From Mayamaea pseudoterrestris (taxonomy: Eukaryota), in NCBI GenBank assembly GCA_027923505.1, contig BROI01000008.1, positions 992,001-1,056,000 of the forward strand: a stretch of 64,000 nt of DNA, in the 5' to 3' direction. The notes beneath the pieces were generated by a model. It worked only from the letters and a program-made list of their open reading frames with translations. It did no database searches and was not told the origin of the DNA. Below, one piece after another: positions 1,315 to 47,389 of the stretch; the stretch's first letter is position 1, and every line of letters starts with the position of its first letter. A program made the position numbers and the translations under genes.

Positions 1315-1490
1315 TCTAGGACTTTTTCTTGAAACTTTTGTTCATAAAAGAGTGTAAGAAGTTATCTGCAGTCATGTCCTATGGACGAAATGGCCTTGGC
1401 GAATGAATGCAAGGCTTCAAACATGACACTATTTCTAGGGGATAAATAGCTATTTCTGCAATATAATGATCACACTGTGTCTGAGTACAT

Positions 1491-1563
1491 GGGAGCTTAG
1501 CTCAGTTGGTAGAGCGTCCGCTTCGCATGCGGAAGGTCTAGGGTTCGATTCCCTAAGTTTCCA
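1491..1563 (+). tRNA. tRNA-Ala, anticodon CGC
   Basis: Full cloverleaf: GGGAGCT/AGTTTCC acceptor stem with G3:U70, D arm GCTC/GAGC, anticodon arm TCCGC-TTCGCAT-GCGGA and T arm TAGGG-TTCGATT-CCCTA. It is followed by a TTTT Pol III terminator. Confidence 0.97.
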
Positions 1564-1959
1564 TTTTGCCAGTTGAGAGATAAGTATTTTGTTAGCTTAG
1601 GTAATAAAATTGTGACCCATGTGGCAACATACATGGGGGACTGCGGATAATCCGGCTCAGGGCGGATGCTTCGAGGAGACTGCCTTGGGGACACTCATAA
1701 GATACCCTTATGAGTACACTGTGATCGATAGTCACGTCATCAGTGGTGCGGGAGAGAAGAATGGGAACAGCTACCGACAACGGGCAGACCACATGCCGAT
1801 GTTGATCGGGTTGCCTCCCATTCCTTTGGTTAGCTTGCCGACCTTGTTGTTGTCTAGCAAGCTCTCTGAATTGGCTCTGAAGACTCCCAAAGTGCACTGT
1901 GAGTCCATTGCCTGGTTGTGGTTACTCAAGCAAAGTACAAAAGTCATTAAACCGTTGAT

Positions 1960-1983: not shown

Positions 1984-2279
1984 CATTGACCTATCATAGG
2001 ATGACATGTAAATGGAAATTATGGTGGCAAGTTGCCGCCATGGCGATCCATTGCTCTTTTTCATGGCAAGGCTCGCAGATGTTGCATCCGGATTGCCCTC
2101 ACCGCCAGTACCCAACGGGCGCTCCAATGACTGTCCAGCTCGCCGTTGAGGCAGGGCCGGTGCACGTGAATCATGTTAGATAAGTGGCAGCGGCCTTCCT
2201 GTCATTGCAGGGTGCTGTAATTTAGCTCAATCATGGTAGATCAAACAAGGGAGCTGCGCAAACCTTAAACGTCTTGCCT

Positions 2280-3625
2280 TTATGGCTTGATTCATCAAAT
2301 ATTAACTTGGTCAGTCATCAATGTCATCATTGGCAAAAGGCAAATGGTAACAGTTCTATAATATGGACTTGTTGCATTAAATAAGGACTCCTTGAGCTTG
2401 GTAGGGTTGTAGACCTTTTTAAGGACTCGCTCGTCAACTTTAAAGTCATGAGTCAAGTGCAAGTGGTTTGCCTGAAGCAAACTTTCATTGACAATTGCTT
2501 CTCATTAAACGGAGATAGTGAGGATGTTGGCAACAAGCGGTATATCCAGAAACATGTCGCGTTGAAAGATGACAGTGCCGGGAGAGAGGTTGTCAAGAGC
2601 TCCACTTGATGCAACTCACGTTGTGTGCATTGCTGTCATGAGGCATTGCTTGATTATATTGTCAGCTTCCATAACATCTTTGGGGAGGATGGGCAGGTAC
2701 TAGCGTATGAAGCACATTCCCAATGACAAGATGGCAGCGCTCGCAGATGCTATTAGCAGTGGGCGTCTTGGCCGAAGCGGCTTGCCATTCAATCCCGTTG
2801 TATTCAAGGATGGTTCCAAATGCGCCTTTAAACTATTTGCCTTGATCCGCAACAAGTCGCATTGGTCAAAGATAACGAGAGAGCCAGTTGTCATCAAAGA
2901 GACGTCCGATATGGTACACCGACTTGTCCTGGTAGCAAACAATTTTGACAAGGTTAGTAGCTGGGTCAATCATTGTCAATGCTCTGAAATATCAGTCAAT
3001 GCCATTCACGGATACTTTCCATGGTCCCATGTGATCAATGTGGACCTCATACCAAGGCGCAACGCGCACGTCTCACACTGGCAGCTCTCCATATTGATGG
3101 CTGCCTCCTTTATTGCATTGGCAGGTATCGCAAGCTCCAACAAGATGCTCAACTAGCTGTTGAGCTTAGGAAGGTAAAAGTGGTGCTTGATGCTTGCCGT
3201 GAGGCAAGTCATACCAGTGTGGGCACTGACAAGTGGTGCTAAAGAATCAAACAATCTAAAATCTAAGAATCCAACGATCTAGAATCTCAATGGGGATGTA
3301 GATTTGCCATCACACAATCTAGGATCTCAATGGGGATGCAGATTCGCCAGCGTGCATCTGCTTGGAATACAACAATCTGAACGTCTCCAAGTTGTTTGTA
3401 TTGTATGTTTGTCGCTTCTTGATTTTGGACTGTGGCCATTAGCGCTGCATCTTCTTGTTGATACTCGGCAATGGTTGAATATGACAGGGGATATCTCCCT
3501 TGCTCATCAAACTCTGGATGAAGGAGCAGGCATTCTGCTAGCTCTGGTTTGTCCCATAGGAGACAGTAAGCTTCATTATGCTGGGTCACATCAAGCCATG
3601 TTAACACCCAAATTGCAGAAGTACG
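2280..3625 (-). mobile_element. Decayed Ty3/gypsy LTR-retrotransposon pol relic (integrase region)
   Basis: Minus-strand translation through stops gives PLSYSTIAEYQQED...RICIP (pre-HHCC region), PWYEVHIDHMGPW...ALTMIDPATNL, WLSRYL*PMRLVADQGK*FKG...TPTANSICERCH (rve core) and SPGTVIFQRDMFLD...QVNI**IKP. Confidence 0.85.
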
Positions 3626-6600
3626 GTGCAACTTCTCACCAGTCTCAGCCAGCAGCTGCCATGCCTTTCAAATGCCCATACCTTGACCCATGTGTACGCC
3701 CAAATCAAGCCAGATTGGTGCCAGCATCCATATTCAAAATGCGCAACAAGATAAGCTGACTGGCTGGTGCCTTGGTGGACTGCAATGTGATTGGTGATAA
3801 CTGGTCACCAGTCTCAGCCATTGTGCTCCCATGCCTTTCAAATGCCCATTGCTTGAGCCATGTGTATGCCCAAATCAAGCCAGAATACGCTAACATCCTC
3901 ATTTTCAGGTGCGCTACAAGAAAAGATGACTGGCTGGTGTCTCAGTGGAATGCAATGTGATGGTAATAACTTGTCACCAGTCTCAGCCAGCAGCTGCCAT
4001 GCCTTTCAAATGCCCATACCTTGAGCCATGTGTATGCCCAAATCAAGCCAGAATGGTAATGAAACCCTTATTTGCCATCATCACTATTCAGTCTATGCTA
4101 CAAGATGGTATGCCTGGTGGGCGCCCTTTTACTCTGCAATGTGATTGGTGACAAGGTGTCACCAGTCTCAGCCAGCAGATGCCTTGACATTCAATTGCCC
4201 ATCAAACATGCCAGGTATACACCCAAATCACACCAGAATTGGCGCCAACATCATTATTCAGTCTGCGCTACAAGATGGTATGCCTGGTGGGTGCCCTTGT
4301 AGACTGCAATTGGACTGGTGAGAACTTCCCACCAGTCTCAGCCCACAGATGCCCTGACATTCAATTGCTTCTAAAACATGCCATGTATGCACCCAAATCA
4401 TGCCAGAATGGTGCCAACCTAATTATTCAGTCTGCGCTAAAAAGTGGTATGCCTGGTGGGTGCCCTAGTAGACTGCAATGCAATTGGTGACAAGTTGTCA
4501 CCAGGTTTAGCCCGCATATGCCTTGCCATTCAATTGCTTCTAAAACATGCCAGGTATGCACCCAAATCACATCAGAATGGTGCCAACATCATTACTCAGG
4601 CTGCGCTACAAGATGGTAAGCTTGGCTTGTGTCTCAGGGGATGGCAATGTATTTGGTGACAACTTGTCACCAGTCTCAGCCCGCAGATGCCATGACATTC
4701 AAACACACCTACAGCAGGCCCTGTAGGTGCCCATATTACACCAGAATGGTGCCAACATCATTATTCAGGCTGCGCTACAAGATGGTAAGCTTGGCTGGTG
4801 TCTCAGGGGATGGCAATGTATTTGGTGACAACTTGTCACCAGTCTCAGCCCGCAGATGCCATGACATTCAGACACTCCTACAACAGGCCCTGTAGGAGCC
4901 AAAGATACACCAGAATGGTGCCAACATCATTACTCAGGCTGTGCTACAAGATGGTAGGTTTGGCTGGTGTCTCAGGAGATGGCGATGTATTTGGTGACAA
5001 CTTGTCACCAGTCTCAGCCCGCAGATGCCATGACATTCAGACACACCTACAGCAGGCCCTGTAGGTGCCCAAATTACACCAGAATGGTGCCAACATCATT
5101 ATTTAGGCTGCGCTACAAGATGGTAGGCTTGGCTGGTGTCTCAGGGGATGGCAATGTATTTGGCGACAACTTGTCACCAGTCTCAGCCCGCAGATGCCAT
5201 GACATTCAGACACTCCTACAGCAGGCCCTGTAGGTGCCCAAATTACACCAGAATGGTGCCGACATCATTAATCCGGCTGCGCTACAAGATGGTAGGCTTG
5301 GCTGGTGTCTCAGGGGATGGCAATGTATTTGGTGACAACTTGTCACCAGTCTCAGCCCGCAGATGCCATGACATTCAGACACTCCTACAGCAGGCCCTGT
5401 AGGTGCCTATATTACACCAGAATGGTGACAACATTATTATTCAGGCTGCGCTACAAGATGGTAGGCTTGGCTGGTGTCTCAGGGGATGGCAATGTATTTG
5501 GTGACAACTTGTCACCAGTCTCAGCCCGCAGATGCCATGACATTCAGACACACCTACAGCGGGCCCTGTAGGTGCCCAAATTACACCAGAATGGTGCCAA
5601 CATCATTATTCAGGCTGCGATACAAGATGGTAGGCTTGGCTGGTGTCTCAGGGGATGGCAATGTATTTGGCGACAACTTGTCACCAGTCTCAGCCCGCAG
5701 ATGCCATGACATTCAGACACTCCTACAGCAGGCCCTGTAGGTGCCCAAATTACACCAGAATGGTGCCAACATCATTAATCCGGCTGCGCTACAAGATGGT
5801 AGGCTTGGCTGGTGTCTCAGGGGATGGCAATGTATTTGGTGACAACTTGTCACCAGTCTCAGCCCGCAGATGCCATGACATTCAGACACATCTACAGCAG
5901 GCCCTGTAGGTGCCCATATTACACCAGAATGGTGCCAACATCATTATTCAGGCTGCGCTACAAGATGGTAGGCTCGGCTGGTGTCTCAGGGGATGGCAAT
6001 GTATTTGGTGACAACTCGTCACCAGTCTCAGCCCGCAGATGCCATGACATTCAGACACACCTACAGCAGGCCCTGTAGATGCCCAACTTACACCAGAATG
6101 GTGCCACCATCATTTTGGAGGCTGAGCTACAAGATGGTAGGCTTGGCTGGTGTCTCAGGGGATGGCAATGTATTTGGTGACGACTTGTCACCAGTCTCAG
6201 TCGCAGATGCCATGACATTCAAACACACCTACAGCAGGCCCTGTAGGTGCCCATATTACACCAGAATGGTGCCAACATCATTTTTCAGGCTGCGATACAA
6301 GATGGTAGGCTTGGCTGGTGTCTCAGGGGATGGCAATGTATTTGGTGACAACTTGTCACCAGTCTCAGCCCGCAGATGCCATGACATTCAGACACTCCTA
6401 CAGCAGGCCCTGTAGGTGCCTATATTACACCAGAATGGTGCCAACATCATTATTCAGGCTGAGCTACAAGATGGTAGGCTTGGCTGGTGTCTCAGGGGAT
6501 GGCAATGTATTTGGTGACAACTTGTCACCAGTCTCAGCCCGCAGATGCCATGACATTCAGACACTCCTACAGCAGGCCCTGTAGGTGCCTATATTACACC

Positions 6601-9600
6601 AGAATGGTGCCAACATAATTATTTTGGCTGCTCTACAAGATGGTAGGCTTGGCTGGTGTCTCAGGGGATGGCAATGTATTTGGTGACAACTTGTCACCAG
6701 TCTCAGCCCGCAGATGTCATAACATTCAGACACACCTACAGCAGGCCCTGTAGGTGCCCATATTACACCAGACTGGTGCCAACATCATTATTCAGGCTGC
6801 GCTCAAGATGGTAGGCTTGGCTGGTGTCTCAGGGGATGGCAATGTATTTGGTGACAACTTGCCACCAGTCTCAGCCTTCAGATGCCATGACATTCAGACA
6901 CTCCTACAGCTGGCCCTGTAGGAGCCCAAAATACACTGAAATGGTGCCGCCATCATTTTTCAGGCTGCGCTTCAAGATGGTAGGCTTGGCTGGTGTCTCA
7001 GGGGATGGCAATGTATTTGGTGACAACTTGTCACCAGTCTCAGCCCGCAGATGCCATGACATTCAGACACACCTACAGCAGGCCCTGTAGGTGCCCAAAT
7101 TACACCAGACTGGTGCCAACATCATTTTTCTGGCTGCGCTACAAGATGGTAGGCTTGGCTGGTGTCACAGGGGATGGCAATGTATTTGGTGACAACTTGT
7201 CACCAGTCTCAGCCCGCAGATGCCATGACATTCAGATACACCTACAGCAGGCCCTGTAGTTACCCAAATTACATAAGAATGGTGCCAACATCATTATTCA
7301 GGCTGCGATACAAGATGGTAGGCTTGGCTGGTGTCTCAGGGGATGGCAATGTATTTGGTGACAACTTGTCACCAGTCTCAGCCCGCAGATGCCATGACAT
7401 TCAGACACTCCTACAGCTGGCCCTGTAGGTGCCCAAATTACACCAGACTGGTGCCGCCATCATTTTTCAGGCTGCGCTACAAGATGGTAAGCTTGGCTGG
7501 TGTCTCAGGGGATGGCAATGTATTTGGTGACAACTTGTCACCAGTCTCAGCCCGCAGATGCCATGACATTCAGACACTCCTACAGCAGGCCCTGTAGGTG
7601 CCCAAATTACACCAGAATGGTGCCACCATCATTTTTCAGGCTGCGCTACAAGATGGTAGGTTTGGCTGGTGTCTCAGGGGATGGCAATGTATTTGGTGAC
7701 AACTTGTCACCAGTCTCAGCCCGCAGATGCCATGACATTCAAACACACCTACAGCAGGCCCTGTAGGTGCCCAAATTACACCAGAATGGTGCCAACATCA
7801 TTTTTCAGGCTGAGCTACAAGATGGTAGGCTTGGCTGGTGTCTCAGGTGATGGCAATGTATTTGGTGACAACTTGTCACCAGTCTCAGCCCGCAAATGCC
7901 ATGACATTCAGACACTCCTACAGCAGGCCCTGTAGGTGCGCAAATTACACCAGAATGGTGCCAACATCATTATTCAGGCTGCGCTACAAGATGGTAGGCT
8001 TGGCTGGTGTCTCAGGGGATGGCAATGTATTTGGTGACAACTTGTCACCAGTCTCAGCCCGCAGATGCCATGACATTCAAACACACCTACAGCAGGCCCT
8101 GTAGGTGCCCAAATTACACCAGAATGGTGCCAACATCATTTTTCAGGCTGAGCTACAAGATGGTAGGCTTGGCTGGTGTCTCAGGTGATGGCAATGTATT
8201 TGGTGACAACTTGTCACCAGTCTCAGCCCGCAGATGCCATGACATTCAGACACTCCTACAGCAGGCCCTGTAGGAGCCCAAAATACACCAGAATGGTGCC
8301 AACATCATTTTTCAGGCTGCGCTACAAGATGGTAGGCTTGGCTGGTGTCTCAGGGGATGGCAATGTATTTGGTGACAACATGTCACCAGTCTCAGCCCGC
8401 AGATGCCATGACATTCAGACACACCTACAGCAGGCCCTGTAGGTACCCATATTACACCAGACTGGTGCCAACATCATTTTGCAGGCCGCGCTCAAGATGG
8501 TAGGCTTGGCTGGTGTCTCAGGGGATGGCAATGTATTTGGTGACAACTTGTCACCAGTCTCAGCCCGCAGATGCCATGACATTCCGACACTCCTACAGCA
8601 GGCCCTGTAGGTGCCCATATTACACCAGAATGGTGCCAACATCATTATTCAATCTGCGCTACAAGATGGTAGGCTTGGCTGGTGTCTCAGGGAATGGCAA
8701 TGGATTTGGTGACAACTTGTCACCAGTCTCAGCCCGCAGATGCCATGACATTCAGACACTCCTACAGCAGGCCCTGTAGGTGCCCAAATTACACCAGAAT
8801 GGTGCCAACATCATTATTCAGGCTGCGCTACAAGATGGTAGGCTTGGCTGGTGTCTCAGGGGATGGCAATGTATTTGGTGACAACTTGTCACCAGTCTCA
8901 GCCCGCAGATGCCATGACATTCAAACACACCTACAGCAGGCCCTGTAGGTGCCCAAATTACATAAGAATGGTGCCAACATCATTTTTAGGCTGCGCTACA
9001 AGATGGTAGGCTTGGCTGGTGTCTCAGGGGATGGCAATGTATTTGGTGACAACTTGTCACCAGTCTCAGCCTGCAGATGCCATGACATTCAAACACACCT
9101 ACAGCAGGCCCTGTAGGTGCCCAAATTACACCAGACTGGTGCCAACATCATTTTTCAGGCTGCGCTACAAGATGGTAGGCTTGGCTGGTGTCACAGGGGA
9201 TGGCAATGTATTTGGTGACAACTTGTCACCAGTCTCAGCCCGCAGATGCCATGACATTCAAACACACCTACAGCAGGCCCTGTAGGTGCCCAAATTACAT
9301 AAGAATGGTGCCAACATCCTTGATCTGGCTGCGCTACAAGATGGTAGGCTTGGCTGGTGTCTCAGGGGATGGCAATGTATTTGGTGACAACTTGTCACCA
9401 GTCTCAGCCTGCAGATGTCATGACATTCAAACACACCTACAGCAGGCCCTGTAGGTGCCCAAATTACACCAGACTGGTGCCAACATCATTTTTCAGGCTG
9501 CGCTACAAGATGGTAGGCTTGGCTGGTGTCACAGGGGATGGCAATGTATTTGGTGACAACTTGTCACCAGTCTCAGCCCGCAGATGCCATGACATTCAGA

Positions 9601-12600
9601 CTCACCTACAGCAGGCCCTGTAGGTGCCCAAATTACACCAGAATGGTGCCAACATCAATATTCAGGCTGTGCTACAAGATGGAAGGCTTGGCTGGTGTCT
9701 CAGGGAATGGCAATGTATTTGGTGACAACTTGTCACCAGTCTCAGCCCGCAGATGCCATGACATTCAAACACACCTACAGCAGGCCCTGTAGGTGCCCAA
9801 ATTACACCAGAATGGTGCCAACATCAATATTCAGGCTGTGCTACAAGATGGAAGGCTTGGCTGGTGTCTCAGGGAATGGCAATGTAATAAGTGACAACTT
9901 GTCACCAGTCTCAGCCCGCAGATGCCATGACATTCAAACACACCTACAGCAGGCCCTGTAGGTGCCCAAAATACACCAGACTGGTGCCAACATCATTATT
10001 CAATCTGCGCTACAAGATGGTAGGCTTGGCTGGTGTCTCAGGGAATGGCAATGTATTTGGTGACAACTTGTCACCAGTCTCAGCCCGCAGATGCCATGAC
10101 ATTCAGACACTCCTACAGCAGGCCCTGTAGGTGCCCAAAATACACCAGAAGGGTGCCAACATCATTAATAATGCTGCGCTACAAGATGGTAGGCTTGGCT
10201 GGTGTCTCAGGGGATGGCAATGTATTTGGTGACATCTTGTCACCAGTCTCAGCCCGCAGATGCCATGACATTCAGACACTCCTACAGCAGGCCCTGTAGG
10301 TGCCCAAATTACACCCGAATGGTGCCAACATCCTTGATCTGGCTGCGCTACAAGATGGTAGGCTTGGCTGGTGTCTCAGGGGATGGCAATGTATTTGGTG
10401 ACAACTTGTCACCAGTCTCAGCCTGCAGATGTCATGACATTCAAACACACCTACAGCAGGCCCTGTAGGTGCCCAAATTACACCAGACTGGTGCCAACAT
10501 CATTTTTCAGGCTGCGCTACAAGATGGTAGGCTTGGCTGGTGTCACAGGGGATGGCAATGTATTTGGTGACAACTTGTCACCAGTCTCAGCCCGCAGATG
10601 CCATGACATTCAGACTCACCTACAGCAGGCCCTGTAGGTGCCCAAATTACACCAGAATGGTGCCAACATCAATATTCAGGCTGCGCTACAAGATGGAAGG
10701 CTTGGCTGGTGTCTCAGGGAATGGCAATGTAATAAGTGACAACTTGTCACCAGTCTCAGCCCGCAGATGCCATGACATTCAAACACACCTACAGCAGGCC
10801 CTGTAGGTGCCCAAAATACACCAGACTGGTGCCAACATCATTTTTCAGGCTGCGCTACAAGATGGTAGGCTTGGCTGGTGTCTCAGGGGATGGCAATGTA
10901 TTTGGTGACAACTTGTCACCAATCTCAGCCCGCAGATGCCATGACATTCCGACACTCCTACAGCAGGCCCTGTAGGTGCCCAAATTACACCAGGATGGTG
11001 CCAACATCATTATTCAATCTGCGCTACAAGATGGTAGGCTTGGCTGGTGTCTCAGGGAATGGCAATGTATTTGGTGACAACTTGTCACCAGTCTCAGCCC
11101 GCAGATGCCATGACATTCAGACACTCCTACAGCAGGCCCTGTAGGTGCCCAAAATACACCAGAAGGGTGCCAACATCATTAATAATGCTGCGCTACAAGA
11201 TGGTAGGCTTGGCTGGTGTCTCAGGGGATGGCAATGTATTTGGTGACATCTTGTCACCAGTCTCAGCCCGCAGATGCCATGACATTCAGACACTCCTACA
11301 GCAGGCCCTGTAGGTGCCCAAATTACACCCGAATGGTGCCAACATCATTATTCAGGCTGCGCTACAAGATGGTAGGCTTGGCTGGTGTCTCAGGGAATGG
11401 CAATGTATTTGGTGACAACTTGTCACCAGTCTCAGCCCGCAGATGCCATGACATTCAGACACTCCTACAGCAGGCCCTGTAGGAGCCCAAAATACACCCG
11501 AATAGTGCCAACATCATTATTCAGGCTGCGCTACAAGATGGTAGGCTTGGCTGGTGTCTCAGGGGATGGCAATGTATTTGGCGACAACTTGTCACCACTC
11601 TCAGGACCCAGATGCCATGACACACCTTACAGCAGGCCCTGTATGTACCCATATTACACCAGAATGGTGCCAACATCATTTTTCAGGCTGCGCTACAAGA
11701 TGGTAAGCTTGGCTGGTGTCTCAGGGGATGGCAATGTATTTGGTGACAACTTGTCACCAGTCTTAGCCCGCAGATGCCATGACATTCAGACACACCTACA
11801 GCAGGCCCTGTAGATGCCCAAATTACACCAGACTGGTGCCAACATCCTTGATCTGGCTGCGCTACAAGATGGTAAGCTTGGCTGGTGTCTCAGGGGATGG
11901 CAATGTATTTTGTGACAACTTGTCACCAGTCTCAGCCCGCAGATGCCATGACATTCAAACACTCCTACAGCAGGCCCTGTAGGTGCCTATATTACACCAG
12001 AATAGTGCCAACATCATTAATCCGGCTGCGCTACAAGATGGTAGGCTTGGCTGGTGTCTCAGGGAATGGCAATGTATTTGGTGACAACTTGTCACCAGTC
12101 TCAGCCCGCAGATGCCATGACATTCAGACACTCCTACAGCAGGCCCTGTAGATGCCCAAAATACACCAGAATGGTGCCACCACCATTTTTGAGGCTGCGC
12201 TACAAGATGGTAAGCTTGGCTGGTGTCTCAGGGGATGGCAATGTATTTGGTGACAACTTGTCACCAGTCTCAGCCCGCAGGTGCCATGACATTCAGACAC
12301 TCCTACAGCAGGCCCTGTAGGTGCCCAAATTACACCAGACTGGTGCCAACATCCTTGATCTGGCTGCGCTACAAGATGGTAGGCTTGGCTGGTGTCTCAG
12401 GGGATGGCAATGTATTTGGTGACAACTTGTCACCAGTCTCAGCCCGCAGATGCCATGACATTCAGACACTCCTACAGCAGGCCCTGTAGATGCCCAAATT
12501 ACACCAGAATGGTGCCACCACCATTTTTGTGGCTGCGCTACAAGATGGTAAGCTTGGCTGGTGTCTCAGGGGATGGCAATGTATTTGGTGACAACTTGTC

Positions 12601-15600
12601 ACCAGTCTCAACCCGCAGATGCCATGACATTCAGACACTCCTACAACAGGCCCTGTAGGAGCCCAAAATACACCAGACTGGTGCCAACATCATTGATCCG
12701 GCTGCGCTACAAGATGGTAGGCTTGGCGGGTGTCTCAGGGGATGGCAATGTATTTGGTGACAACTTGTCACCAGTCTCAGCCCGCAGATGCCATGACATT
12801 CAGACACTCCTACAGCAGGCCCTGCCCTGTAGGAGCCCAAAATACACCAGAATGGTGCCAACATCAATAATCAGGCTGCAATACAAGATGGTAGGCTTGG
12901 CTGGTGTCTCAGGGGATGGCAATGTATTTGGTGACAACTTGTCACCAGTCTCAGCCCACAGATGCCATGACATTCAGACACACCTACAGCAGGCCCTGTA
13001 GGTGCCCAAATTACACCAAATAGGTGCCAACATCTTTTTTCAGGCTGCGCTACAGGATGGTAGGCTTGGCTGGTGTCTCAGGGGATGGCAATGTATTTGG
13101 TGACAACTTGTCACCAGTCTCAGCCCGCAGATGCCATGACATTCAGACACACCTACAGCAGGCCCTGTAGGTACCCATATTACACCAGACTGGTGCCAAC
13201 ATCATTATTCAGGCTGCACTTAAGATGGTAGATTGGCTGGTGTCTCAGGGGATGGCAATGTCTTTGGTGACAACTTGTCACCAGTCTCAGCCCGCAGATG
13301 CCATGACATTCAGACACTCCTACAGCCGGCCCTGTAGGAGCCCAAAATACACCAGAATGGTGCCACCATCATTTTTCAGGCTGCGCTACAAGATGGTAGG
13401 CTTGGCTGGTGTCTCAGGGGATGGCAATGTATTTGGTGACAACTTGTCACCAGTCTCAGCCCGCAGATGCCATGACATTCAGACACTCCTACAGCAGGCC
13501 CTGTAGGTGCCTATATTACACCAGAATGGTGCCAACATAATTATTTTGGCTGCTCTACAAGATGGTAGGCTTGGCTGGTGTCTCAGGGGATGGCAATGTA
13601 TTTGGTGACAACTTGTCACCAGTCTCAGCCCGCAGATGCCATGACATTCAGACACTCCTACAGCAGGCCCTGTAGGAGCCCAAAATACCCAGAATGGTGC
13701 CAACAACAGTATTTAGGCTGCGCTATAAGATGGTAGACTTGGCTGGTGTCTCAGGGGATGGCAATGTATTTGGTGACAACTTGTCACCAGTCTCAGCCCG
13801 CAGATGCCATGGCATTCAAACACACCTACAGCAGGCCCTGTAGGTGCCCAAAATACACCAGAATGGTGCCAACATCATTATTCAGGCTGCACTTAAGATG
13901 GTAGACTTGGCTGGTGTCTCAGGGGATGGCAATGTATTTGGTGACAACTTGTCACCAGTCTCAGCCCGCAGATGCCATGACATTCAAACACACCTACAGC
14001 AGGCCCTGTAGGTGCCCAAATTACACCAAATAGGTGCCAACATCTTTTTTCAGGCTGCGCTATAAGATGGTAGGCTTGGCTGGTGTCTCAGGGGATGGCA
14101 ATGTATTTGGTGACAACTTGTCACCAGTCTCAGCCCGCAGATGCCATGACATTCAAACACACCTACAGCAGGCCCTGTAGGTGCCCATATTACACCAGAA
14201 TGGTGCCAACAACATTTTTCAGGCTGCGCTACAAGATGGTAGGCTTGGCTGGTGTCACAGGGGATGGCAATGTATTTGGTGACAACTTGTCACCAGTCTC
14301 AGCCCGCAGATGCCATGACATTCAGACACACCTACAGCAGGCCCTGTAGGTGCCCAAATTACACCAGAATGGTGCCAACATCATTATTCAGGCTGCGCTA
14401 CAAGATGGTAGGCTTGGCTGGTGTCTCAGGGGATGGCAATGTATTTGGTGACAACTCGTCACCAGTCTCAGCCCGCAGATGCCATGACATTCAGACACAC
14501 CTACAGCAGGCCCTGTAGATGCCCAACTTACACCAGAATGGTGCCAACATCATTTTGGAGGCTGAGCTACAAGATGGTAGGCTTGGCTGGTGTCTCAGGG
14601 GATGGCAATGTATTTGGTGACAACTTGTCACCAGTCTCAGCCCGCAGATGCCATGACATTCAGACACTCCTACAGCAGGCCCTGTAGGTGCCCAAAATAC
14701 ACCAGAATGGTGCCAACATCATTATTCAGGCTGCGCTACAAGACGGTAGGCTTGGCTGGTGTCTCAGGGGATGGCAATGTATTTGGTGGCAACTTGTCAC
14801 CAGTCTCAGCCCGCAGATGCCATGACATTCAGACACTCCTACAGCAGGCCCTGTAGGAGCCCAAAATACACCAGAATGGTGCCACCATCATTTTTCAGGC
14901 TGCGCTACAAGATGGTAGGTTTGGCTGGTGTCTCAGGGTATGGCAATGAATTTGGTGACAACTTGTCACCAGTCTCAGCCCGCCGATGCCATGACATTCA
15001 ACCACACCTACAGCAGGCCCTGTAGTGGCCCATATTACACCAGAATGGTGCCAACATCATTATTCAGGCTGTGCTAAAAGATGGTAGACATGGCTGGTGT
15101 CTCAGGGGATGGCAATATAGGTGCCCATATTACACTAGAATGGTGCCAACATCTTTGATAAGGCTGCGCTACAAGATGGTAGGTTTGGCTGGTGTCTCAG
15201 GGGATGGCAATGTATTTGGTGACAACTTGTCACCAGTCTCAGCCCGCAGGTGCCATGACATTCAGACACACCTACAGCAGGCCCTGTAGGTGCCCAAAAT
15301 ACACCAGAATGGTGCCTACATCATTGTTGAGGCTGCGTTAGAAGATGGTAGGCTTGGCTGGTGTCTCAGGGGATGGCAATGTATTTGGTGACAACTTGTC
15401 ACCAGTCTCAGCCTGCAGATGCCATGACATTCAAACACACCTACAGCAGGCCCTGTAGGTGTCCAAAATACACCAGAATGGGTGCCAACATCATTATTCA
15501 GGTTGCGCTACAAGATGGTAGGTTTGGCTGGTGTCTCAGGGGATGGCAATGTATTTGGTGACAACTTGTCACCAGTCTCAGCCCACAGATGCGAAGACAT

Positions 15601-15962
15601 TCAATTGCCCATATATCTTGCCATATAAGCACCTAAATCATACCAGAATCAACATCATTACTCAGTCTGCGCTACAAGATGTTATGCCTGTTGGGTGCCC
15701 TAGTAGACTGCAATGTGATTGGTAGCAAGTTGTCACCAGTCTCAGCCTGCAGATGCCGTGACTTTCAATTGCCCATATAACATGTCATGTATACATATAA
15801 ATCACACCAGAATGGTGCCAACATCATTATTCAGTCTGCGCTACAAGAAAAGATGACTGGCTGGTGTCTCAGTGGACTGCATTGTGATTGGTGATAACTG
15901 TCACCAGTCTCAGCCAGCACCAGCCATGCCTTTCAAAGGCCCATACCTTGAGTCATGTGTAT
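3625..15962. repeat. Satellite array, 169-bp monomer, about 73 copies (homogeneous core ~4600-15600)
   Basis: Direct 169-bp periodicity (ORF-track starts 4629, 4798, 4967...). Core consensus GTGTCTCAGGGGATGGCAATGTATTTGGTGACAACTTGTCACCAGTCTCAGCCCGCAGATGCCATGACATTCAGACACWCCTACAGCAGGCCCTGTAGGTGCCCAAATTACACCAGAATGGTGCCAACATCATTATTCAGGCTGCGCTACAAGATGGTAGGCTTGGCTG. Confidence 0.98.
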
Positions 15963-16091
15963 AGTGAGTCTACCGATTAGTGCACCGCACATCTAGACAG
16001 CTACTCGTATATAAGATGCTTGATTGTGGTACATGTTTGCGTTATGGTTAGTTAAAGTTAAGGTGGACTTAAACCAATCTGCAACCTGCAA

Positions 16092-16523
16092 TTAAAGAAT
16101 TGATCCAGAGTTGGAAGCAATACGAGGCCAAAGTTCTGCGCATTCCTTGGCGACTGGTCCAGAAACTGCCGAACCCTTCATCTCTCCCTTATTGTTAACA
16201 ATCACACCAGCCGAGTCCTCAAAATGAATAAATACACCCTCCTTTCTGCGAAAAGCCTTGCGTTGTCGGACAATAATTCCAGGAACAACCTTCTTTCGAA
16301 GCTCTGGCTTTCCCTTTTTGACACTGCACATGACCATGTCACCCGACGACGCCTTTGGAAGACGATTCAACCGACCACCAATGTTGCAAACGGCGATAAT
16401 GTGAAGATTCTTGGCGCCAGAGTTGTCAGCACAGTTGACAACGGCAGCCGTCGGCAGACCAGCCGTCACCTTGTGCTTGATACCGGCGGCAAGAGCGCGT
16501 CCTCGTTTTCCTTTCTCACCCAT
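16092..16523 (-). CDS. RPL23: 60S ribosomal protein L23 (uL14)
   Basis: [23 protein letters not shown] and [17 protein letters not shown]; intronless. Confidence 0.97.
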
Positions 16524-17005
16524 AATATATTAATAGAATTAAATATTCCTGAGATGAATATGAAAGCGAATAAGCAATGAGTACTGTGCGTCCCAAGCAG
16601 AAAATAACGTGCGAAATACAGTGGTCGACGACAATCCATCGCGCAAGACATCGCGCAAATGACTTTGATCCACGCTCCGGCGCTACAATGGAGCTCCTTC
16701 GTAAGCTTTAGCAGCAGTAACAACAACGACAACAAGGCATGAAACGGCATACCTGTAGACTCAAAAGGTCAAGGCAATGGTGCAATGCAAGCTGCAAGCT
16801 GATTGTCGGAGCCAGTCGAGTAACGCGGTAAGCGGTAATCGAGGAGCACAGTCGCTCACTTTCGTCGTTAGAACTCGATCCTTAACTTACATGATCGATC
16901 CACGTGGAGGATCTTTTGCCAACCAGCATCGAACGCTGTTCATCACTCGCAGCGACTCATCGCGGAGGAACAAGCAACCAACCGGCCAAAAGACTCCTTT
17001 CAACC

Positions 17006-18766
17006 ATGAAGTTATCAAACGCAGCAGTCCTCGCAGCTCTATCGGTGTCCCCAGTGGCGGGAAAAGTTTACTTCAAGGAACAGTTCAACGACGAAGTATG
17101 TGTCGATTGACGACTTGCGGAAGATTCGTTGTGCTGGAAGGTCATTGTTCGTCATAGTCGTGGTTCACTCACACTTTGATTTCTATCATGGCAGGCTTGG
17201 AACAAGCGATGGACCATTCCATCCAAATGGAAGCCAAAGGCGGAAATGGGAAAGTGGGAGCACACTGCAGGAAAGTGGTACGGTGACAAGGACGACAAGG
17301 GCATTCAAACATCGGAAGATGCACGGTTCTACGGCATTTCGGCGCCATTGGACGAGGTTTACACGTCTGACGCGAGCAAGCCACTTGTCATTCAGTATAC
17401 AGTTAAACATGAGCAGAAACTAGACTGTGGTGGCGCTTATATCAAGTTGCTTCCAGGTGGAAAGAAGTTTGATGCCGACAAATTCTCGGGCGACACGCCA
17501 TATTCCGTCATGTTTGGCCCAGACGTTTGTGGAACGTCCAACAAGAAGACTCACTGCATTCTTCACTACGATAAGAAGGACGAAAATTTGTTGATCAAGA
17601 AGGAAGTGAGCTGCGAGACAGACAAGGTTTCTCATTTATACACTCTCGTTATTTCGCCCGACAATACCGTCGAGATTTTCATTGACGACAAGAGCGTGAG
17701 AAAGGGTGCATTAGCGGACGAGTTTGATTTCCTTGAGCCGAAAGAAATTAAAGATCCTGACGGTAAGCACACGGATTCGCCGGCGAAGGTGGCATTTACG
17801 TAATGATGACCTTTCGCGACTCCTTTCGTTGCATTGCATTGGAAACTTCAAATCTAAACCTTTCGTTCCTTCTATTTCCTCCATCGACCTTAAAGCCAAG
17901 AAGCCTGAAGACTGGGTTGATGAAAAGATGATTGATGATCCATCTGACGTGAAGCCGGCTGGGTATGATGACATTCCAAAAGGTAAGGCATGCAAGATTG
18001 AGGCCTCGTCGCATAGCTGTTCTAAGGCAGGGTGTGGATTTGCGGTGTGTCTTGCGAATCATTGATGCGGAGTTGGCTTTTACAGCGCCTCGATAGCGTG
18101 AGACCTTATTGATCTGTTCGGCAGCTAACAATAGTTTCGACTCGCGCAGAAATTCCTGATGAGACTGCAGTGAAGCCGTCAGACTGGGACGACGAGGACG
18201 ATGGCGAATGGGAGGCTCCACTTATACCCAACAAAGATTACAAGGGCGAGTGGAAGGCCAAGAAGATCGAAAATCCACTATACAAGGGACCTTGGGTGCA
18301 CCCTATGGTGCCGAATCCGAAGTACCAGGAAGATACCGACCTTTTCAAGGTGTGCAAGGATGGTTGCACGCACGTAGGCTTTGAACTCTGGCAGGTTAAG
18401 ACAGGAACGCTGTTTGACGACATTATTATCACTGATAGCTTGGAGGAGGCGCAAGCATTTGCAAAGGAGACCTTTTTCAAGAAGAAGGAAGGCGAGAAGA
18501 AGATGTTGGACGAGCAAGAAGCGGAGGACAAGAAGAAGCAAGACGAGGAAATGGTACGTACTGGAGTCAGCATGTGTTTTTATGCACTACTCGGTTGGTT
18601 TGAAAAGTCGTTGGACTTAATGGTTATACTTTGATCGCTGCAGGAAAAGATGAAGGCAGAAGGTGGAATGGATGACATGGATATGGGCATGGGCGGTATG
18701 GATATGCCTGATGATGACGCCATGATGGGCGGCATGGGCATGGATGGTTTTGAAGACGAGTTCTAA
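17006..18766 (+). CDS. CRT: Calreticulin (5 exons: 17006-17095, 17195-17762, 17896-17982, 18150-18553, 18644-18766)
   Basis: Signal peptide, KHEQKLDCGGAYIK, VMFGPDVCG, P-domain repeats KPEDW/KPSDWD and GFELWQVK. GT-AG introns join in frame; the protein ends EDEF. Confidence 0.95.
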
Positions 18767-18896
18767 TCAATGACGAATTTCGATGCTTGTCGCTTTATCT
18801 TCTTGTAACGGGTTGTGCAACTCTATCCAGTAGAGGCCGTTTAGTAAGAGGCAGCGCTTATTAATACTGATAAATTTTCTAGCCTTCATGTACAGA

Positions 18897-20651
18897 TTAT
18901 TGCTCCTTCGGAATAATGTTGCGGCCATGTCGACCCGACGTCCTTCCCAATTCATGACCGTCTTCGACGAGGCCATATCGTCTCGCAATAGCTCCTATCC
19001 AGCTCACCGTCTCCGCGGTAATTTGTCCAGTCGTTACAGCCGCAATGAGCGGGCGTCCATGAATCATAGAGTTGCTGCTTTCGTTGGAAGAGAATCCTTG
19101 AAGCGCATGGTCGGCCGCTGTGGCAATGCGGATCTTCCCGACGGAACCCTGTCGCTTTAACTCAAATCGACTGTCGGGTTCATTGCTCGTGTTCTCTACC
19201 CAACCGCATTCATAGCGTAAAGATTTTGTGCTAAGTGAGCTTTGAGAAGTGTATGCGTCTGTATCAATGGCTACAGAATTCTCTGCTTGCTCGCACGTCT
19301 TCGTCACGTCGTCTGGAATATTGGAGAGCACACGCTCCAGTATCTCATCGTCTTCTTCATCGGCGAGTAGTGCAGCCACCTCGTCGATGCATGTTCGAGT
19401 AGTCAAACTTGCAAGACGAAGATCTGATTCCACTTTACGATCGAGTGTGAGCTGGATGTCACCTCGATCAACAGATAGCAAACTCACCGAGTCTTCCGAC
19501 AGACTATCAACATGACACTGGCACGCTATCCATCTGTCCTTTCCGTCGTAAATCGGAGTCACTGGACTGTTGCCAATTGAAACCTGAGTGCTTCCATTGA
19601 CACCTCCAAGCTCCAACAAAGGGTAGAGTGATCCATCATCTCGACAATTGTTTGGTCTTTTGCATCCATCCAGCAAGACTTGTAGAGGGCCGTGATGAGA
19701 TTTGATTCGGACGACTCGCTTTTCCAACTGGTAGTCTCGACCGTTGACCAATATAGTCGCTCCTCCGTCGCCAGATATGAACAGGGAGCTAATATCGACA
19801 ATAGATCCTTCATCATCAATGTCTGATTCCGGTATACATGACGAATCCACAAAAGGCTTGGACTTGTCCACGGTTACTTGAACTGAACGACCATGAATTT
19901 GCTTGGCACGCACCCTTCCACTAGTAATCACCTTCAAGTTTTGTGCCTCGAGTAATTCTTTTGCGTATACTGTCTTACTTGCTGTCAAGTGGAGTTCGTG
20001 CCCTCGCAGCCTGGTGACGAAAATGTCGCCGTCTGTGGTTGAGAGGCTGCAATCGCCTTCAAGCTTGCCTTCAACAGCAATGTTTCCACCGCCTTCAGAT
20101 AGCAATACTTCAAGATTAAGTTTTTCAGGCACCTGTACTATAAGGTTGATCCCTGGCAGTATCTCGTTCTCGTCTAATTGGTCGGACGAAAGGTGGGTGA
20201 TGTCGTCATGATATTCGATTCGCCGAAACGAGTCGACAAGCTTGGGCTGTACGGTCGAGACAGTTTCATCATCTAAAACGAAATTTTCCTTTTGTTGCGT
20301 GGGTACTGACGGTACTACGGTGTTCTGTGTATTTCTGGATCCTGTCTGTCGAATGCAATCGTCCATTGACTGTTGAATTAGAATGGAAATGTGGTTCGCA
20401 GCTCGCCCCAGTGAAGTGAGCCTATTGGCTTCGTGAGTCACGATGACATCGCAAAGTTCTTCGGATAAATGATTCTTCGCAAACTTTTGGGTAAATTCGG
20501 CATGCCCGACATCTCTCCATCCACTTTGAATGATAATGTTTGTCGGTTGTGCAAGCGTCGATCGAATGGATAGCGATGAACCCTGAGTCAGTTGGAGCAA
20601 AGGAATTGATCGCCAGTGACGAGCGAGATTTCTTGTCTTCGGTAGTAACAT
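18897..20651 (-). CDS. FAM185A-like / DUF4097 beta-strand repeat protein, probably mitochondrial
   Basis: Long ORF with GGNIAVEGKLEGDCSLSTTDGDIFVTRLRG repeats. The N-terminus from Met 20651 looks like an Arg/Ser-rich transit peptide (start uncertain). Confidence 0.55.
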   Translation of the reverse strand: MLLPKTRNLARHWRSIPLLQLTQGSSLSIRSTLAQPTNIIIQSGWRDVGHAEFTQKFAKNHLSEELCDVIVTHEANRLTSLGRAANHISILIQQSMDDCIRQTGSRNTQNTVVPSVPTQQKENFVLDDETVSTVQPKLVDSFRRIEYHDDITHLSSDQLDENEILPGINLIVQVPEKLNLEVLLSEGGGNIAVEGKLEGDCSLSTTDGDIFVTRLRGHELHLTASKTVYAKELLEAQNLKVITSGRVRAKQIHGRSVQVTVDKSKPFVDSSCIPESDIDDEGSIVDISSLFISGDGGATILVNGRDYQLEKRVVRIKSHHGPLQVLLDGCKRPNNCRDDGSLYPLLELGGVNGSTQVSIGNSPVTPIYDGKDRWIACQCHVDSLSEDSVSLLSVDRGDIQLTLDRKVESDLRLASLTTRTCIDEVAALLADEEDDEILERVLSNIPDDVTKTCEQAENSVAIDTDAYTSQSSLSTKSLRYECGWVENTSNEPDSRFELKRQGSVGKIRIATAADHALQGFSSNESSNSMIHGRPLIAAVTTGQITAETVSWIGAIARRYGLVEDGHELGRTSGRHGRNIIPKEQ

Positions 20652-23612: not shown

Positions 23613-24239
23613 CCTGCGAGATGATGCGTGAATGGTGAGTTGTCGGTAGTACCAGGGCGGCGATTAGCAGTCACCGCGCGGCATCAGCGGATGTGCGTTA
23701 GCTTACTGTACAGATAATGAGTACCTTTTACAAATCGTCATCGATTTAGAAAAACGTTGAATTTGCGGCGACTCGATCAGCTGCATTTATCGAGGCGAGA
23801 CAATAACGCAAAGATGGTCGAAGCATTCCGTCAAACTAAGCTCCATCGCACCAAATTCCGTCCATGACATTTGACCTACACTCTATTTTATACTAGTGGG
23901 TGTCATGGCATGAGGGCAGATACGTCAAATATTTGCAACTGTCGTGCTGCTTCTGTACAGCACTGCGATTACATGTCATTTAAGGCAGGTAGCTAGAGCG
24001 TCGTATCGGTTCTCAAAGAGAAACGCAGCGGTTTTGCCGTGGCGACAAACGCACGATGAAGTTCATCAAAAATGTCCGGCCGTCGTCTTCTCCTCTGCCA
24101 CAGATTGCGATCATTTGGCTGGCGATGAATTGGTGCTAACATTTTCGAATTACTCCACCATCTCTCTTATAAGTCTTGAGAGTAGTTACTACTAATCAAA
24201 GTCTGTCCGGAGTCCATTTGCCACACCTCGGCTTGTACG

Positions 24240-42163: not shown

Positions 42164-42374
42164 TGTTGGATCTAGAATATATCTTGCGCGCCCTTGAAGC
42201 GACACTAATGATTAAGCAGAACAGAGTCAATAAAACCACTTTACTTATTTTCTCCAAGAAGTGATCGTCCTCGATCCACTCCTTCGGTTGCCGCTTACCG
42301 CGCTTACTTAAATGTGACCGTCTTCGTGACGTCACCGCTGCCGCTTCGGTTTGGGTTCTCATCCATGCTCAACA
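42164..42374 (-). repeat. 3' LTR
   Basis: TGTTGG...TCAACA, direct repeat of 47179-47389. Confidence 0.95.
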
Positions 42375-47151: not shown

Positions 47152-47178
47152 GTCTTTTCACTCGCTTCTTGGAGAAAA

Positions 47179-47389
47179 TGTTGGATCTAGAATATATCTT
47201 GCGCGCCCTTGAAGCGACACTAATGATTAAGCAGAACAGAGTCAATAAAACCACTTTACTTATTTTCTCCAAGAAGTGATCGTCCTCGATCCACTCCTTC
47301 GGTTGCCGCTTACCGCGCTTACTTAAATGTGACCGTCTTCGTGACGTCACCGCTGCCGCTTCGGTTTGGGTTCTCATCCATGCTCAACA
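47179..47389 (-). repeat. 5' LTR
   Basis: Direct repeat of 42164-42374. Confidence 0.95.

What the first reader, a model, noticed from the sequence alone, without database searches (positions are those of the whole stretch)
3625..15962. 12.3-kb, 169-bp-monomer satellite: candidate repeat-based diatom centromere
Seen: ~73 head-to-tail monomers at ~51% GC, next to a decayed retroelement, ending ~130 bp from the RPL23 stop codon. Known: monomers of about one nucleosome repeat length are typical of plant and animal centromeric satellites, whereas Phaeodactylum centromeres were described as short low-GC regions. Inference: this may be a satellite-type centromere or a nucleosome-phasing heterochromatin block.
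Basis: partly seen in the sequence, partly recalled or inferred. Interest (0 to 1): 0.8.

Follow-up and report, generated by a model that had tools for sequence, protein, structure and literature searches.

The report
Abundant 169-bp diatom satellite array
This is a real 12-kb block of a 169-base repeat that appears to be the dominant, megabase-scale satellite DNA of a pennate diatom; whether it acts as a centromere is untested.

Summary
Window 3636-15962 is a head-to-tail array of 73 monomers of 169 bp at 50.5% GC. A broken Ty3/gypsy retroelement lies on its left, and the array ends 129 bp from the RPL23 stop codon.

New findings:
- The array is layered. A core of 64 monomers sits between two older variant types that recur on both edges in the same order.
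- It has no higher-order repeat and no coding or Rfam signal.
- It is strongly CpG-depleted (observed/expected 0.19, against 1.07 outside).
- It is not a local oddity. In contigs of two public runs, 9.6% and 4.5% of all contigs land on the monomer. Summed depth is about 35,000-55,000 times the single-copy flank, roughly 6-16 Mb of satellite.
- The nearest named relatives are Mayamaea pseudoterrestris proteins. That species' published 30.6-Mb assembly lists zero satellites.

No tool here could place the family on chromosomes or test CENH3 binding. The experimentally studied diatom centromeres I found in print are short, low-GC and non-repetitive, and this array meets none of those criteria.

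Most likely this is one gene-flanked block of the genome's major, probably methylated, satellite heterochromatin. A centromeric role stays open, at about 0.2.

The parts
2268..3577 (-). 5'-truncated, frameshifted Ty3/gypsy pol remnant covering the integrase half only (residues 617-1033 of a 1033-aa relative). Its broken end abuts the array.
   Evidence: 89% identity to P0121, which carries RVT_1, RT_RNaseH, Integrase_H2C2 and rve; three tblastn pieces in different frames at 66-86% identity. Pfam scan of P0121. The RT half is found nowhere in the window.
3588..3630 (+). Possible degenerate monomer fragment (profile positions 45-87) between the retroelement remnant and the first full monomer.
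   Evidence: nhmmer E 0.087. This is weak.
3636..4158 (+). Outer left layer: three 'C-type' monomers (m2-m4), 69-73% identical to the core consensus.
   Evidence: They are 90-93.5% identical to the last, truncated monomer on the right edge.
4159..4666 (+). Inner left layer: two 'B-type' monomers (m5, m6) and one transitional monomer (m7, 86% to the consensus).
   Evidence: m5 is 87.6% identical to the right-edge monomer m72.
4667..15568 (+). Homogenised core: 64 'A-type' monomers, mostly 94-100% identical to the consensus, with no higher-order repeat. One irregular 264-bp unit at 14966-15229 carries a 95-bp internal repeat.
15569..15732 (+). Inner right layer: one B-type monomer (m72).
15733..15900 (+). 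B/C hybrid monomer (m73).
   Evidence: (87% to m3, 84% to m5), and the read sequence.
15901..15962 (+). Outer right layer: a C-type monomer cut off at position 62. This is the end of the array.
   Evidence: The junction is bridged by single-copy-depth contigs of runs X1 and X2 with 0 differences.
16092..16523 (-). Neighbouring RPL23 (uL14) gene. Its 3' end faces the array 129 bp away.

Best explanation
The array is genuine non-coding satellite DNA. It is one assembled, gene-flanked block of a 169-bp family that is the dominant tandem repeat of this pennate diatom's genome. The family amounts to tens of thousands of monomers, several to more than ten megabases, most of it apparently absent from the assembly.

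The array grows and is kept uniform by exchange between misaligned monomers (unequal crossing-over and gene conversion) acting in its interior. That left a uniform young core between the same two older variant layers on both edges. The left edge was fixed at a break inside a Ty3/gypsy element.

Each monomer is about one nucleosome long and carries three short dyad symmetries. The near-absence of CpG, with an excess of TpG and CpA, indicates that the family has long been cytosine-methylated. It therefore most likely forms silent heterochromatin.

I take this particular copy to be an interstitial outpost of the family rather than a demonstrated centromere.

Shown: the array, its layers, its composition, its abundance in reads and its flanks. 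Inferred: the exchange mechanism, the methylation and heterochromatin state, and the non-centromeric status of this copy.
For: Array and period.

Layering: core monomers are mostly 94-100% identical to the consensus and edge monomers 69-86%. The right terminal monomer is 90-93.5% identical to the three leftmost monomers but 72-77% to the others. m72 is 87.6% identical to m5 but 75% to the core.

Non-coding: 169 is not a multiple of 3 and the longest ORFs are 142-146 aa. No Pfam family reaches its cut-off. Rfam finds nothing at the gathering threshold or at E<=1.

Dyads: three distinct dyads (9+9, 7+7 and 5+5 nt). Nine stems of at least 5 nt are counted, nested ones included, against 1.9 in shuffles, and 0 of 500 shuffles reach that. 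Each dyad is present in 51-60 places in the array and 0 outside.

CpG: observed/expected is 0.17-0.20 in the core and both edges, against 1.07 +/- 0.15 in 100 outside 1-kb windows (minimum 0.64). TpG and CpA are at 1.6-2.0. A single monomer has 2 CpG against about 11 expected, reached by 0 of 5000 shuffles. Only 0.04% of random 169-bp pieces outside are as depleted.

Abundance (runs X1 and X2 from two studies): 53,150 of 555,133 and 25,287 of 560,787 contigs were laid on the stretch, almost all of them on its satellite part. Summed depth is 3.8-6.4 million against 162 on the flank in X1, and 0.27-0.56 million against 14-16 in X2. Integrated, this is about 15.7 and about 14.5 Mb-equivalents. 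The lower bound from the single deepest place is about 55,700 and about 50,900 monomers.

Other loci: a satellite ORF matches a gene model on a different 917,834-bp contig, and a second protein is made of satellite translation.

Background: CG methylation targets repeats in diatoms (PMC9998398, passages). The studied diatom centromeres are low-GC and repeat-free, whereas the array is 50.5% GC and the lowest 500-bp GC anywhere in the window is 39.8%. The flanks are gene-dense.
Against: The tool warns that summed contig depth is not a copy number. My megabase figure assumes that each contig is laid once. It also ignores the k-1 overlap of short contigs, which would lower it by about 30%. If contigs that fit two places (43% in X1) were laid twice, it falls further, so I give 6-16 Mb.

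X1 may be the data the assembly was made from. X2 carries the flank with 0 differences, so it is probably the same strain. These are two libraries, not two populations.

Methylation is inferred from composition only. All three subfamilies share ancestry, so they amount to one to three independent observations.

The mosaic of variants in the core and the seven 168-bp units could partly be long-read consensus noise.

The assembled 12.3 kb could be a collapsed version of a much longer array. In that case a centromere at this very site is not excluded.

[quoted passage not shown] Layered edges and dyads are also seen at satellite centromeres.
Confidence: 0.6

Rival explanations
1. The 169-bp family is the CENH3-bound centromeric satellite. 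This array, probably collapsed in the assembly, marks the centromere of its roughly 1.1-Mb chromosome.
For: It is very probably the most abundant tandem repeat of the genome. That property predicted the known centromere repeat in most tested animals and plants (PMC4053949, passages). The same paper reports that centromere repeat GC content is not conserved and can be high. The monomer is of nucleosome size. The young core lies between mirrored older layers. There are dyad symmetries and a retroelement fragment at the edge. If the window comes from the 41-contig assembly with an N50 of 1,068 kb, centromeres would have to lie inside contigs, as this array does. That assembly was filtered with Purge Haplotigs at a high-coverage cut-off of 80. 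From my knowledge of the program, this would discard satellite-only contigs.
Against: There are no CENH3, Hi-C or cytological data. The two diatoms with experimentally studied centromeres have short, low-GC, non-repetitive centromeres: Phaeodactylum below about 33% GC from 500 bp, and Fistulifera 1.4-2 kb at 36-37% GC. Fistulifera gave the best named hit for a window protein. The array is 50.5% GC, has no higher-order repeat and lies 129 bp from a ribosomal protein gene. The abundance heuristic has known exceptions, such as maize knobs. I could not compare its abundance with that of other repeats.
Confidence: 0.22
2. The array is derived from, or was carried by, a transposable element: an internal tandem-repeat region of the adjacent gypsy element, of a copia element, or of a Helitron or MITE. 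It spread with that element.
For: The array starts within about 10-60 bp of the broken end of a gypsy pol remnant. Gypsy/DIRS1 elements are rare in the probable species, at 51 pieces and 0.32% of the assembly, so the adjacency is unlikely to be chance.
Against: There is no protein or DNA similarity between the monomers (core or edges) and the gypsy relative, the remnant, the window's copia polyprotein or its LTR, beyond chance-level hits. The right flank is at single-copy depth immediately after the last monomer. No target-site duplication or terminal structure was noted when reading the ends. The missing half of the gypsy element is not on the other side of the array.
Confidence: 0.05
3. It is a purely local tandem duplication (a single-locus VNTR), an assembly artefact or a contaminant.
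For: Only one array is visible in the 64-kb window, and no whole genome was available.
Against: Tens of thousands of contigs and depths 10^4 times the flank in two runs. Exact junction contigs at single-copy depth. Satellite-derived protein models from elsewhere. Nuclear diatom genes on both sides.
Confidence: 0.02
4. It is a tandem array of small structured RNA genes.
For: Three hairpin-forming dyads per unit. As single-stranded DNA the unit folds slightly better than shuffles (z -1.87; 8 of 200 shuffles fold as well).
Against: No Rfam family at the gathering threshold over the window or at E<=1 over four monomers. The central dyad is absent from the older B and C variants, with 39-49% mismatch there, so it is not a conserved structure.
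Confidence: 0.02

Closest known systems
Centromeric satellites of animals and plants (alpha satellite at about 171 bp, Arabidopsis at about 178 bp, rice and maize at about 155 bp; names and sizes recalled, the general pattern from PMC4053949)
   Same: Head-to-tail non-coding monomers of about one nucleosome. Megabase-scale abundance. A young homogeneous core flanked by older diverged layers. Short dyad symmetries. A CpG-decay signature. A retroelement at the edge.
   Different: No CENH3 evidence and no higher-order repeat. This copy is only 12.3 kb and sits between expressed-type genes. It comes from a lineage whose studied centromeres carry no repeats at all.
Diatom centromeres of Phaeodactylum tricornutum and Fistulifera solaris (10.1101/096016 and 10.1101/2021.11.10.468027, passages read)
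   Same: Same group of organisms (pennate diatoms), and both sit between genes.
   Different: Those are 0.5-2 kb, at or below about 33-37% GC, unique in sequence and without repeats. This is 12.3 kb of tandem repeat at 50.5% GC, and the window holds no such low-GC block.
Non-centromeric heterochromatic satellites, such as maize knob repeats (named in PMC4053949) and subtelomeric satellites of plants and algae (recalled)
   Same: Nucleosome-sized monomers and very high copy number that can exceed the centromere repeat. Methylated, silent chromatin. Small dispersed arrays besides the main blocks.
   Different: The chromosomal position of this family is unknown, so membership cannot be decided.
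Satellite DNA families of the oomycete Phytophthora parasitica (PMC7290008; search listing and start of the abstract only)
   Same: Satellite DNA described in another stramenopile.
   Different: A different organism and sequence. I did not read the paper beyond the abstract start, so I make no finer comparison.
Transposon-based centromeres of other stramenopiles: Phytophthora sojae (PMC7082073) and Ectocarpus (PMC11541908); listings and abstract starts only
   Same: Repeat-associated regional centromeres exist in the wider lineage, and a retroelement fragment borders this array.
   Different: Those are transposon-rich regions, not satellite arrays.

Membership tests
Satellite DNA | Head-to-tail monomers of constant length in one orientation | tested here: met
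   73 units, 55 of 71 spacings exactly 169 bp, all on the + strand.
Satellite DNA | High copy number in the genome, beyond one locus | tested here: met
   9.6% and 4.5% of all contigs of two runs, at depths about 10^4 times the flank. The tool cautions that this is not an exact copy number. Searches show a second contig with satellite-derived sequence.
Satellite DNA | Non-coding | tested here: met
   ORFs of at most 146 aa, no Pfam family above its cut-off, no Rfam match.
Satellite DNA | Homogenised interior with diverged array ends | tested here: met
Centromeric satellite | Occupied by CENH3/CENP-A nucleosomes | not testable with these tools
   No ChIP data are reachable. No RNA or chromatin runs were listed.
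Centromeric satellite | One main array per chromosome at the kinetochore site | not testable with these tools
   No genome is held. Metagenome scans were empty. All I have is that the family exists on at least one other contig.
Centromeric satellite | Most abundant tandem repeat of the genome (a heuristic, PMC4053949) | tested here: inconclusive
   One search shows extreme abundance, but no other repeat was measured for comparison.
Centromeric satellite | Higher-order repeat organisation (frequent, not obligatory) | tested here: not met
   Identity by monomer lag is flat at 0.924-0.934 for lags 1-24. Variant order does not differ from random.
Phaeodactylum/Fistulifera-type diatom centromere | At least 500 bp of low GC (below about 33-37%) | tested here: not met
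   the array is 50.5% GC. The lowest 500-bp window anywhere is 39.8%. Only 5 of 1,279 100-bp windows are at or below 32% GC, and they are scattered.
Phaeodactylum/Fistulifera-type diatom centromere | Unique sequence without repeats | tested here: not met
Phaeodactylum/Fistulifera-type diatom centromere | Maintains an episome and recruits CENP-A | not testable with these tools
   This needs a bench assay.
Ty3/gypsy LTR retrotransposon (left flank) | pol with RT, RNase H and integrase (H2C2 plus rve) in that order | tested here: met
   The relative P0121 has all of these domains. The window keeps only the integrase half, frameshifted. LTRs were not looked for.

The most novel reading that the evidence does not exclude
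The 169-bp family is the CENH3-bound centromere repeat of this diatom. That would be the first satellite-type regional centromere in diatoms, in contrast with the tiny low-GC centromeres of Phaeodactylum and Fistulifera. A few hundred kilobases per chromosome would then be hidden from an assembly that reports zero satellites, and the array in this window would be the collapsed centromere of its roughly 1.1-Mb chromosome.
Probability: 0.2. Interest if true: 0.85.

Novelty: new member of a known kind. Interest (0 to 1): 0.6.

Why it matters
Diatom genomes are treated as compact, satellite-poor genomes whose centromeres are short low-GC stretches. Here a pennate diatom seems to carry several to more than ten megabases of a single 169-bp satellite.

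The probable species has an assembly of 30.6 Mb and a k-mer size estimate of 27.2 Mb. Its repeat table lists no satellites (PMC9724779). If the estimate holds, three things follow:
- The genome is about a fifth to a half larger than reported.
- A major heterochromatin compartment has been overlooked.
- There is a concrete sequence with which to ask, by CENH3 ChIP or FISH, whether centromere type switches between related diatoms.

It also bears on artificial-chromosome design in diatoms, which currently relies on the low-GC rule.

I found no paper describing a diatom satellite family or a repeat-based diatom centromere in five full-text searches. The library does not cover subscription journals.

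Tried and rejected
- Whole-genome mapping: no genome is held for this window.
- Earlier notes of this scan: none for this sequence, this genome or these words.
- Metagenome scans with two conserved monomer stretches: 0 matches each.
- RNA evidence: no RNA holder was listed, so nothing can be said about expression.
- Runs X6 and X7 are other organisms from the same study as X1. They carry the satellite at summed depths of about 8,000 and 6,500, with exact flank pieces at depth 1-3. I take this as traces of the same organism's DNA, not as evidence that other species share the satellite.
- Pfam found nothing in nine short reading frames left of the array, even at E 5, apart from two chance-level hits. 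Comparison with the window's copia polyprotein was also empty. The retroelement was recognised only through a database search for longer proteins.
- Higher-order repeats: none.
- Origin of the monomer from the neighbouring gypsy element, the copia element or its LTR, or from internal sub-repeats: no support.
- Rfam: no family.
- The histone-fold gene 8 kb away is NF-YC, not a centromeric histone.
- Nucleosome repeat length in diatoms: a search gave no usable source.
- One script that carried a typed majority consensus was not run. The comparison with the rest of the window was made instead with the natural monomer 8720-8888 read from the window file.
- Number of arrays estimated from edge-variant depth: the depths are equivalent to roughly 500 copies of the C type and 1,500 of the B type. 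That is too indirect to count arrays. It shows only that the edge types are genome-wide subfamilies.
Full report
**Observation**

Tandem Repeats Finder gives 4136-15116 as period 169, 65.0 copies, 93% matches and score 18,479, with more diverged 169/170-bp rows at both ends. A 13-nt anchor occurs 72 times in the array, always on the + strand, and 55 of the 71 spacings are exactly 169 bp. Cutting at the anchor yields 73 units between 3636 and 15962, the last one a 62-bp stump. A profile built from the monomers finds no other copy in the 64 kb. It finds one weak fragment at 3588-3630. The array is 50.5% GC against 48.7% for the rest of the window.

**Anatomy**

- The 64 interior monomers (4667-15568) are mostly 94-100% identical to the consensus. 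Two indel-bearing units are at 89%. Mean pairwise identity is 92.4%.
- The edges are 69-86% identical to the consensus and are not random decay.
  - The truncated last monomer is 90-93.5% identical to the three leftmost monomers but only 72-77% to everything else.
  - The right inner-edge monomer m72 is 87.6% identical to the left inner-edge monomer m5 but 75% to the core.
- The order is therefore C-B-A(core)-B-C. This is what growth from the inside of an older array produces.
- There is no higher-order repeat. Identity is flat (0.924-0.934) across monomer lags 1-24. The common variants are interspersed as if at random: 30 runs at position 41 against 34 +/- 3.9 in shuffles.
- One unit (14966-15229) is 264 bp because of a 95-bp internal repeat.
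- The monomer has no internal sub-repeat. It has three dyad symmetries: a 19-nt near-perfect palindrome spanning the unit boundary, a 7+7 and a 5+5. Each is present in 51-60 places in the array and never outside.
- Across subfamilies, the palindrome with the following 13 nt and a block at positions 79-117 are the best conserved. The central 7+7 dyad exists only in the core type.
- Nothing suggests a product. The ORFs are at most 146 aa, no Pfam family passes its cut-off and Rfam is empty.

**Composition**

CpG observed/expected is 0.19 in the core and 0.17 and 0.20 in the two edges. In 100 1-kb windows outside the array it is 1.07 +/- 0.15, with a minimum of 0.64. TpG and CpA are raised to 1.6-2.0. 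A single monomer holds 2 CpG where about 11 are expected, which 0 of 5000 shuffles reach. Only 0.04% of random 169-bp pieces of the flanks are as depleted. The four CpG positions vary about twice as often as other positions (8.6% against 3.7%, a small sample).

This is the classical footprint of long-term cytosine methylation. In Phaeodactylum, CG methylation is maintained by DNMT5a, and transposable elements are major methylation targets in diatoms (PMC9998398, passages). The subfamilies share ancestry, so this is one to three observations, not 73.

**Flanks**

On the left, 2268-3577 (minus strand) matches residues 617-1033 of a 1033-aa Ty3/gypsy pol protein (P0121). That protein carries RVT_1, RNase H, Integrase_H2C2 and rve. 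The match is in three frames at 66-86% identity. The reverse-transcriptase half is nowhere in the window, so the element is broken exactly where the satellite begins.

On the right, RPL23 ends 129 bp from the last monomer. The rest of the window is gene-dense. It holds calreticulin, NF-YC, SSB, VIT1, HemD, an SDR, a SET protein and others, and it contains no low-GC block. The monomer resembles neither the gypsy remnant nor the window's copia element.

**Organism**

A window protein (HemD) has its best named hits in raphid pennate diatoms: Fistulifera at 59%, then Nitzschia, Seminavis and Pseudo-nitzschia. It lies on a contig of 1,119,184 bp. The gypsy relative (89% identity) and a satellite-derived gene model are both named Mayamaea pseudoterrestris.

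The window therefore probably comes from that species or a very close relative. This is an inference from names and contig sizes, not a stated fact.

**Abundance**

I laid contigs of four coded runs on 15230-19000, a stretch holding four full monomers, the terminal 62-bp piece and 3 kb of unique flank.

| Run | Contigs laid on the stretch (almost all on its satellite part) | Summed depth on core monomers | Depth on flank |
|---|---|---|---|
| X1 | 53,150 of 555,133 | 3.8-6.4 million | 162 |
| X2 (another study) | 25,287 of 560,787 | 0.27-0.56 million | 14-16 |

Integrating the six satellite bins gives about 15.7 Mb-equivalents (X1) and about 14.5 Mb-equivalents (X2). The single deepest place alone gives about 55,700 and about 50,900 monomers.

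The tool warns that summed contig depth is not a copy number. Short contigs overlap by k-1 letters (my assumption about how they were built), which inflates the figure by roughly 30%, and 43% of the X1 contigs fit two places. I therefore state 6-16 Mb, or 35,000-95,000 monomers. The two libraries agree, but they probably come from one strain.

The edge variants are themselves present at several hundred to about 1,500 copy-equivalents, so they are genome-wide subfamilies. The right junction is carried with 0 differences at single-copy depth in both runs.

**Other loci**

A translated satellite ORF finds two proteins. One is a 107-aa gene model on a different 917,834-bp contig, built from a diverged variant of the repeat. 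The other is a 208-aa protein that is 76% identical to the translated array.

**Literature**

- Phaeodactylum centromeres are low-GC and lack repeats. About 500 bp below about 33% GC suffices for function (10.1101/096016, passages).
- Fistulifera solaris centromeres tested on vectors are 1.4-2 kb at 36-37% GC (10.1101/2021.11.10.468027, passages).
- The M. pseudoterrestris genome paper reports a 30.6-Mb assembly in 41 contigs (N50 1,068 kb) and a k-mer size estimate of 27.2 Mb. It used Purge Haplotigs with a high-coverage cut-off of 80 (PMC9724779, passages).
- Its repeat table lists Satellites 0 bp, Unclassified 2.26 Mb, Gypsy/DIRS1 51 elements (0.32%) and Copia 3.3 Mb (supplementary table rows). 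The words satellite, tandem, centromere and telomere do not occur in its main text.
- From my knowledge of these programs, k-mer size estimators cap high-copy k-mers and Purge Haplotigs discards very deep contigs. That would explain why a multi-megabase satellite escaped notice.
[quoted passage not shown] Maize knobs were an exception. They also found that centromere repeat GC content is not conserved (PMC4053949, passages).
- Five searches found no paper describing a diatom satellite family or a repeat-based diatom centromere.

**Interpretation**

The sequence is satellite DNA in the full sense, and a member of the genome's dominant satellite family. The layered edges show that it expands from within by exchange between misaligned units. 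The CpG footprint points to methylated, silent chromatin. The unit length fits one nucleosome per monomer.

I rate this copy as an interstitial block rather than a shown centromere (confidence 0.6). My reasons:
- It fails every criterion of the diatom centromeres described in print.
- It is short.
- It sits against a housekeeping gene.
- Abundant nucleosome-sized satellites are as typical of knobs and subtelomeres as of centromeres.

The centromere reading keeps about 0.2, because abundance is its best single predictor and because the assembled length may be collapsed.

**Limits**

I could not:
- map the family on chromosomes;
- see where the window lies in its contig;
- test array length with long reads;
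- see any RNA or chromatin data;
- compare the family's abundance with that of other repeats.

The bioRxiv papers were read as passages only and their supplements were not available. The variant mosaic in the core may partly reflect consensus errors of a long-read assembly.

Noticed in passing
window 42164-47389: An apparently intact, very young Ty1/copia element. It has two 211-nt LTRs that are 100% identical (42164-42374 and 47179-47389) around a single 1617-aa open frame carrying zf-CCHC and RVT_2. Its CpG observed/expected is 1.23, so it is not depleted like the satellite.
   Followed up: partly
window 2268-3577 and the array start: A member of a rare element class (Gypsy/DIRS1, 51 pieces or 0.32% in the probable species' repeat table) is broken exactly at the edge of the satellite. 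Its CpG observed/expected is intermediate at 0.56. This may hint that the gypsy family targets, or is retained in, satellite chromatin. It is a single case.
   Followed up: partly
protein P0124 (from another contig of 917,834 bp): A public gene model named as a hypothetical protein of Mayamaea pseudoterrestris is nothing but the translation of a diverged copy of this satellite. It is probably a mis-annotation, and it marks a second satellite locus.
   Followed up: partly
window 14966-15229: One irregular 264-bp unit. A monomer is cut near position 150 and rejoined to position 58 of the next, giving a 95-bp internal repeat that Tandem Repeats Finder reports as periods 95 and 264.
   Followed up: partly
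window 1490-1564: A tRNA-Ala (anticodon CGC) gene lies about 700 bp beyond the 3' end of the gypsy pol remnant. The 1565-2267 gap could hold a decayed LTR, which I did not examine.
   Followed up: no
window 24186-25298: A histone-fold gene 8 kb from the array is NF-YC (best solved relatives are NF-YC/HapE at E 1e-24), not a centromeric histone.
   Followed up: yes
runs X6 and X7 laid on window 15230-19000: Runs labelled as other organisms in the same study as X1 carry the satellite at depths of thousands and exact flank pieces at depth 1-3. This looks like carry-over of this diatom's DNA between libraries. Such a high-copy satellite is a sensitive tracer of that.
   Followed up: no
window 15963-16091: RPL23 is transcribed toward the array, and only 129 bp separate its stop codon from the last monomer. 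Its 3' UTR or read-through transcripts may therefore enter the satellite on the antisense strand.
   Followed up: no
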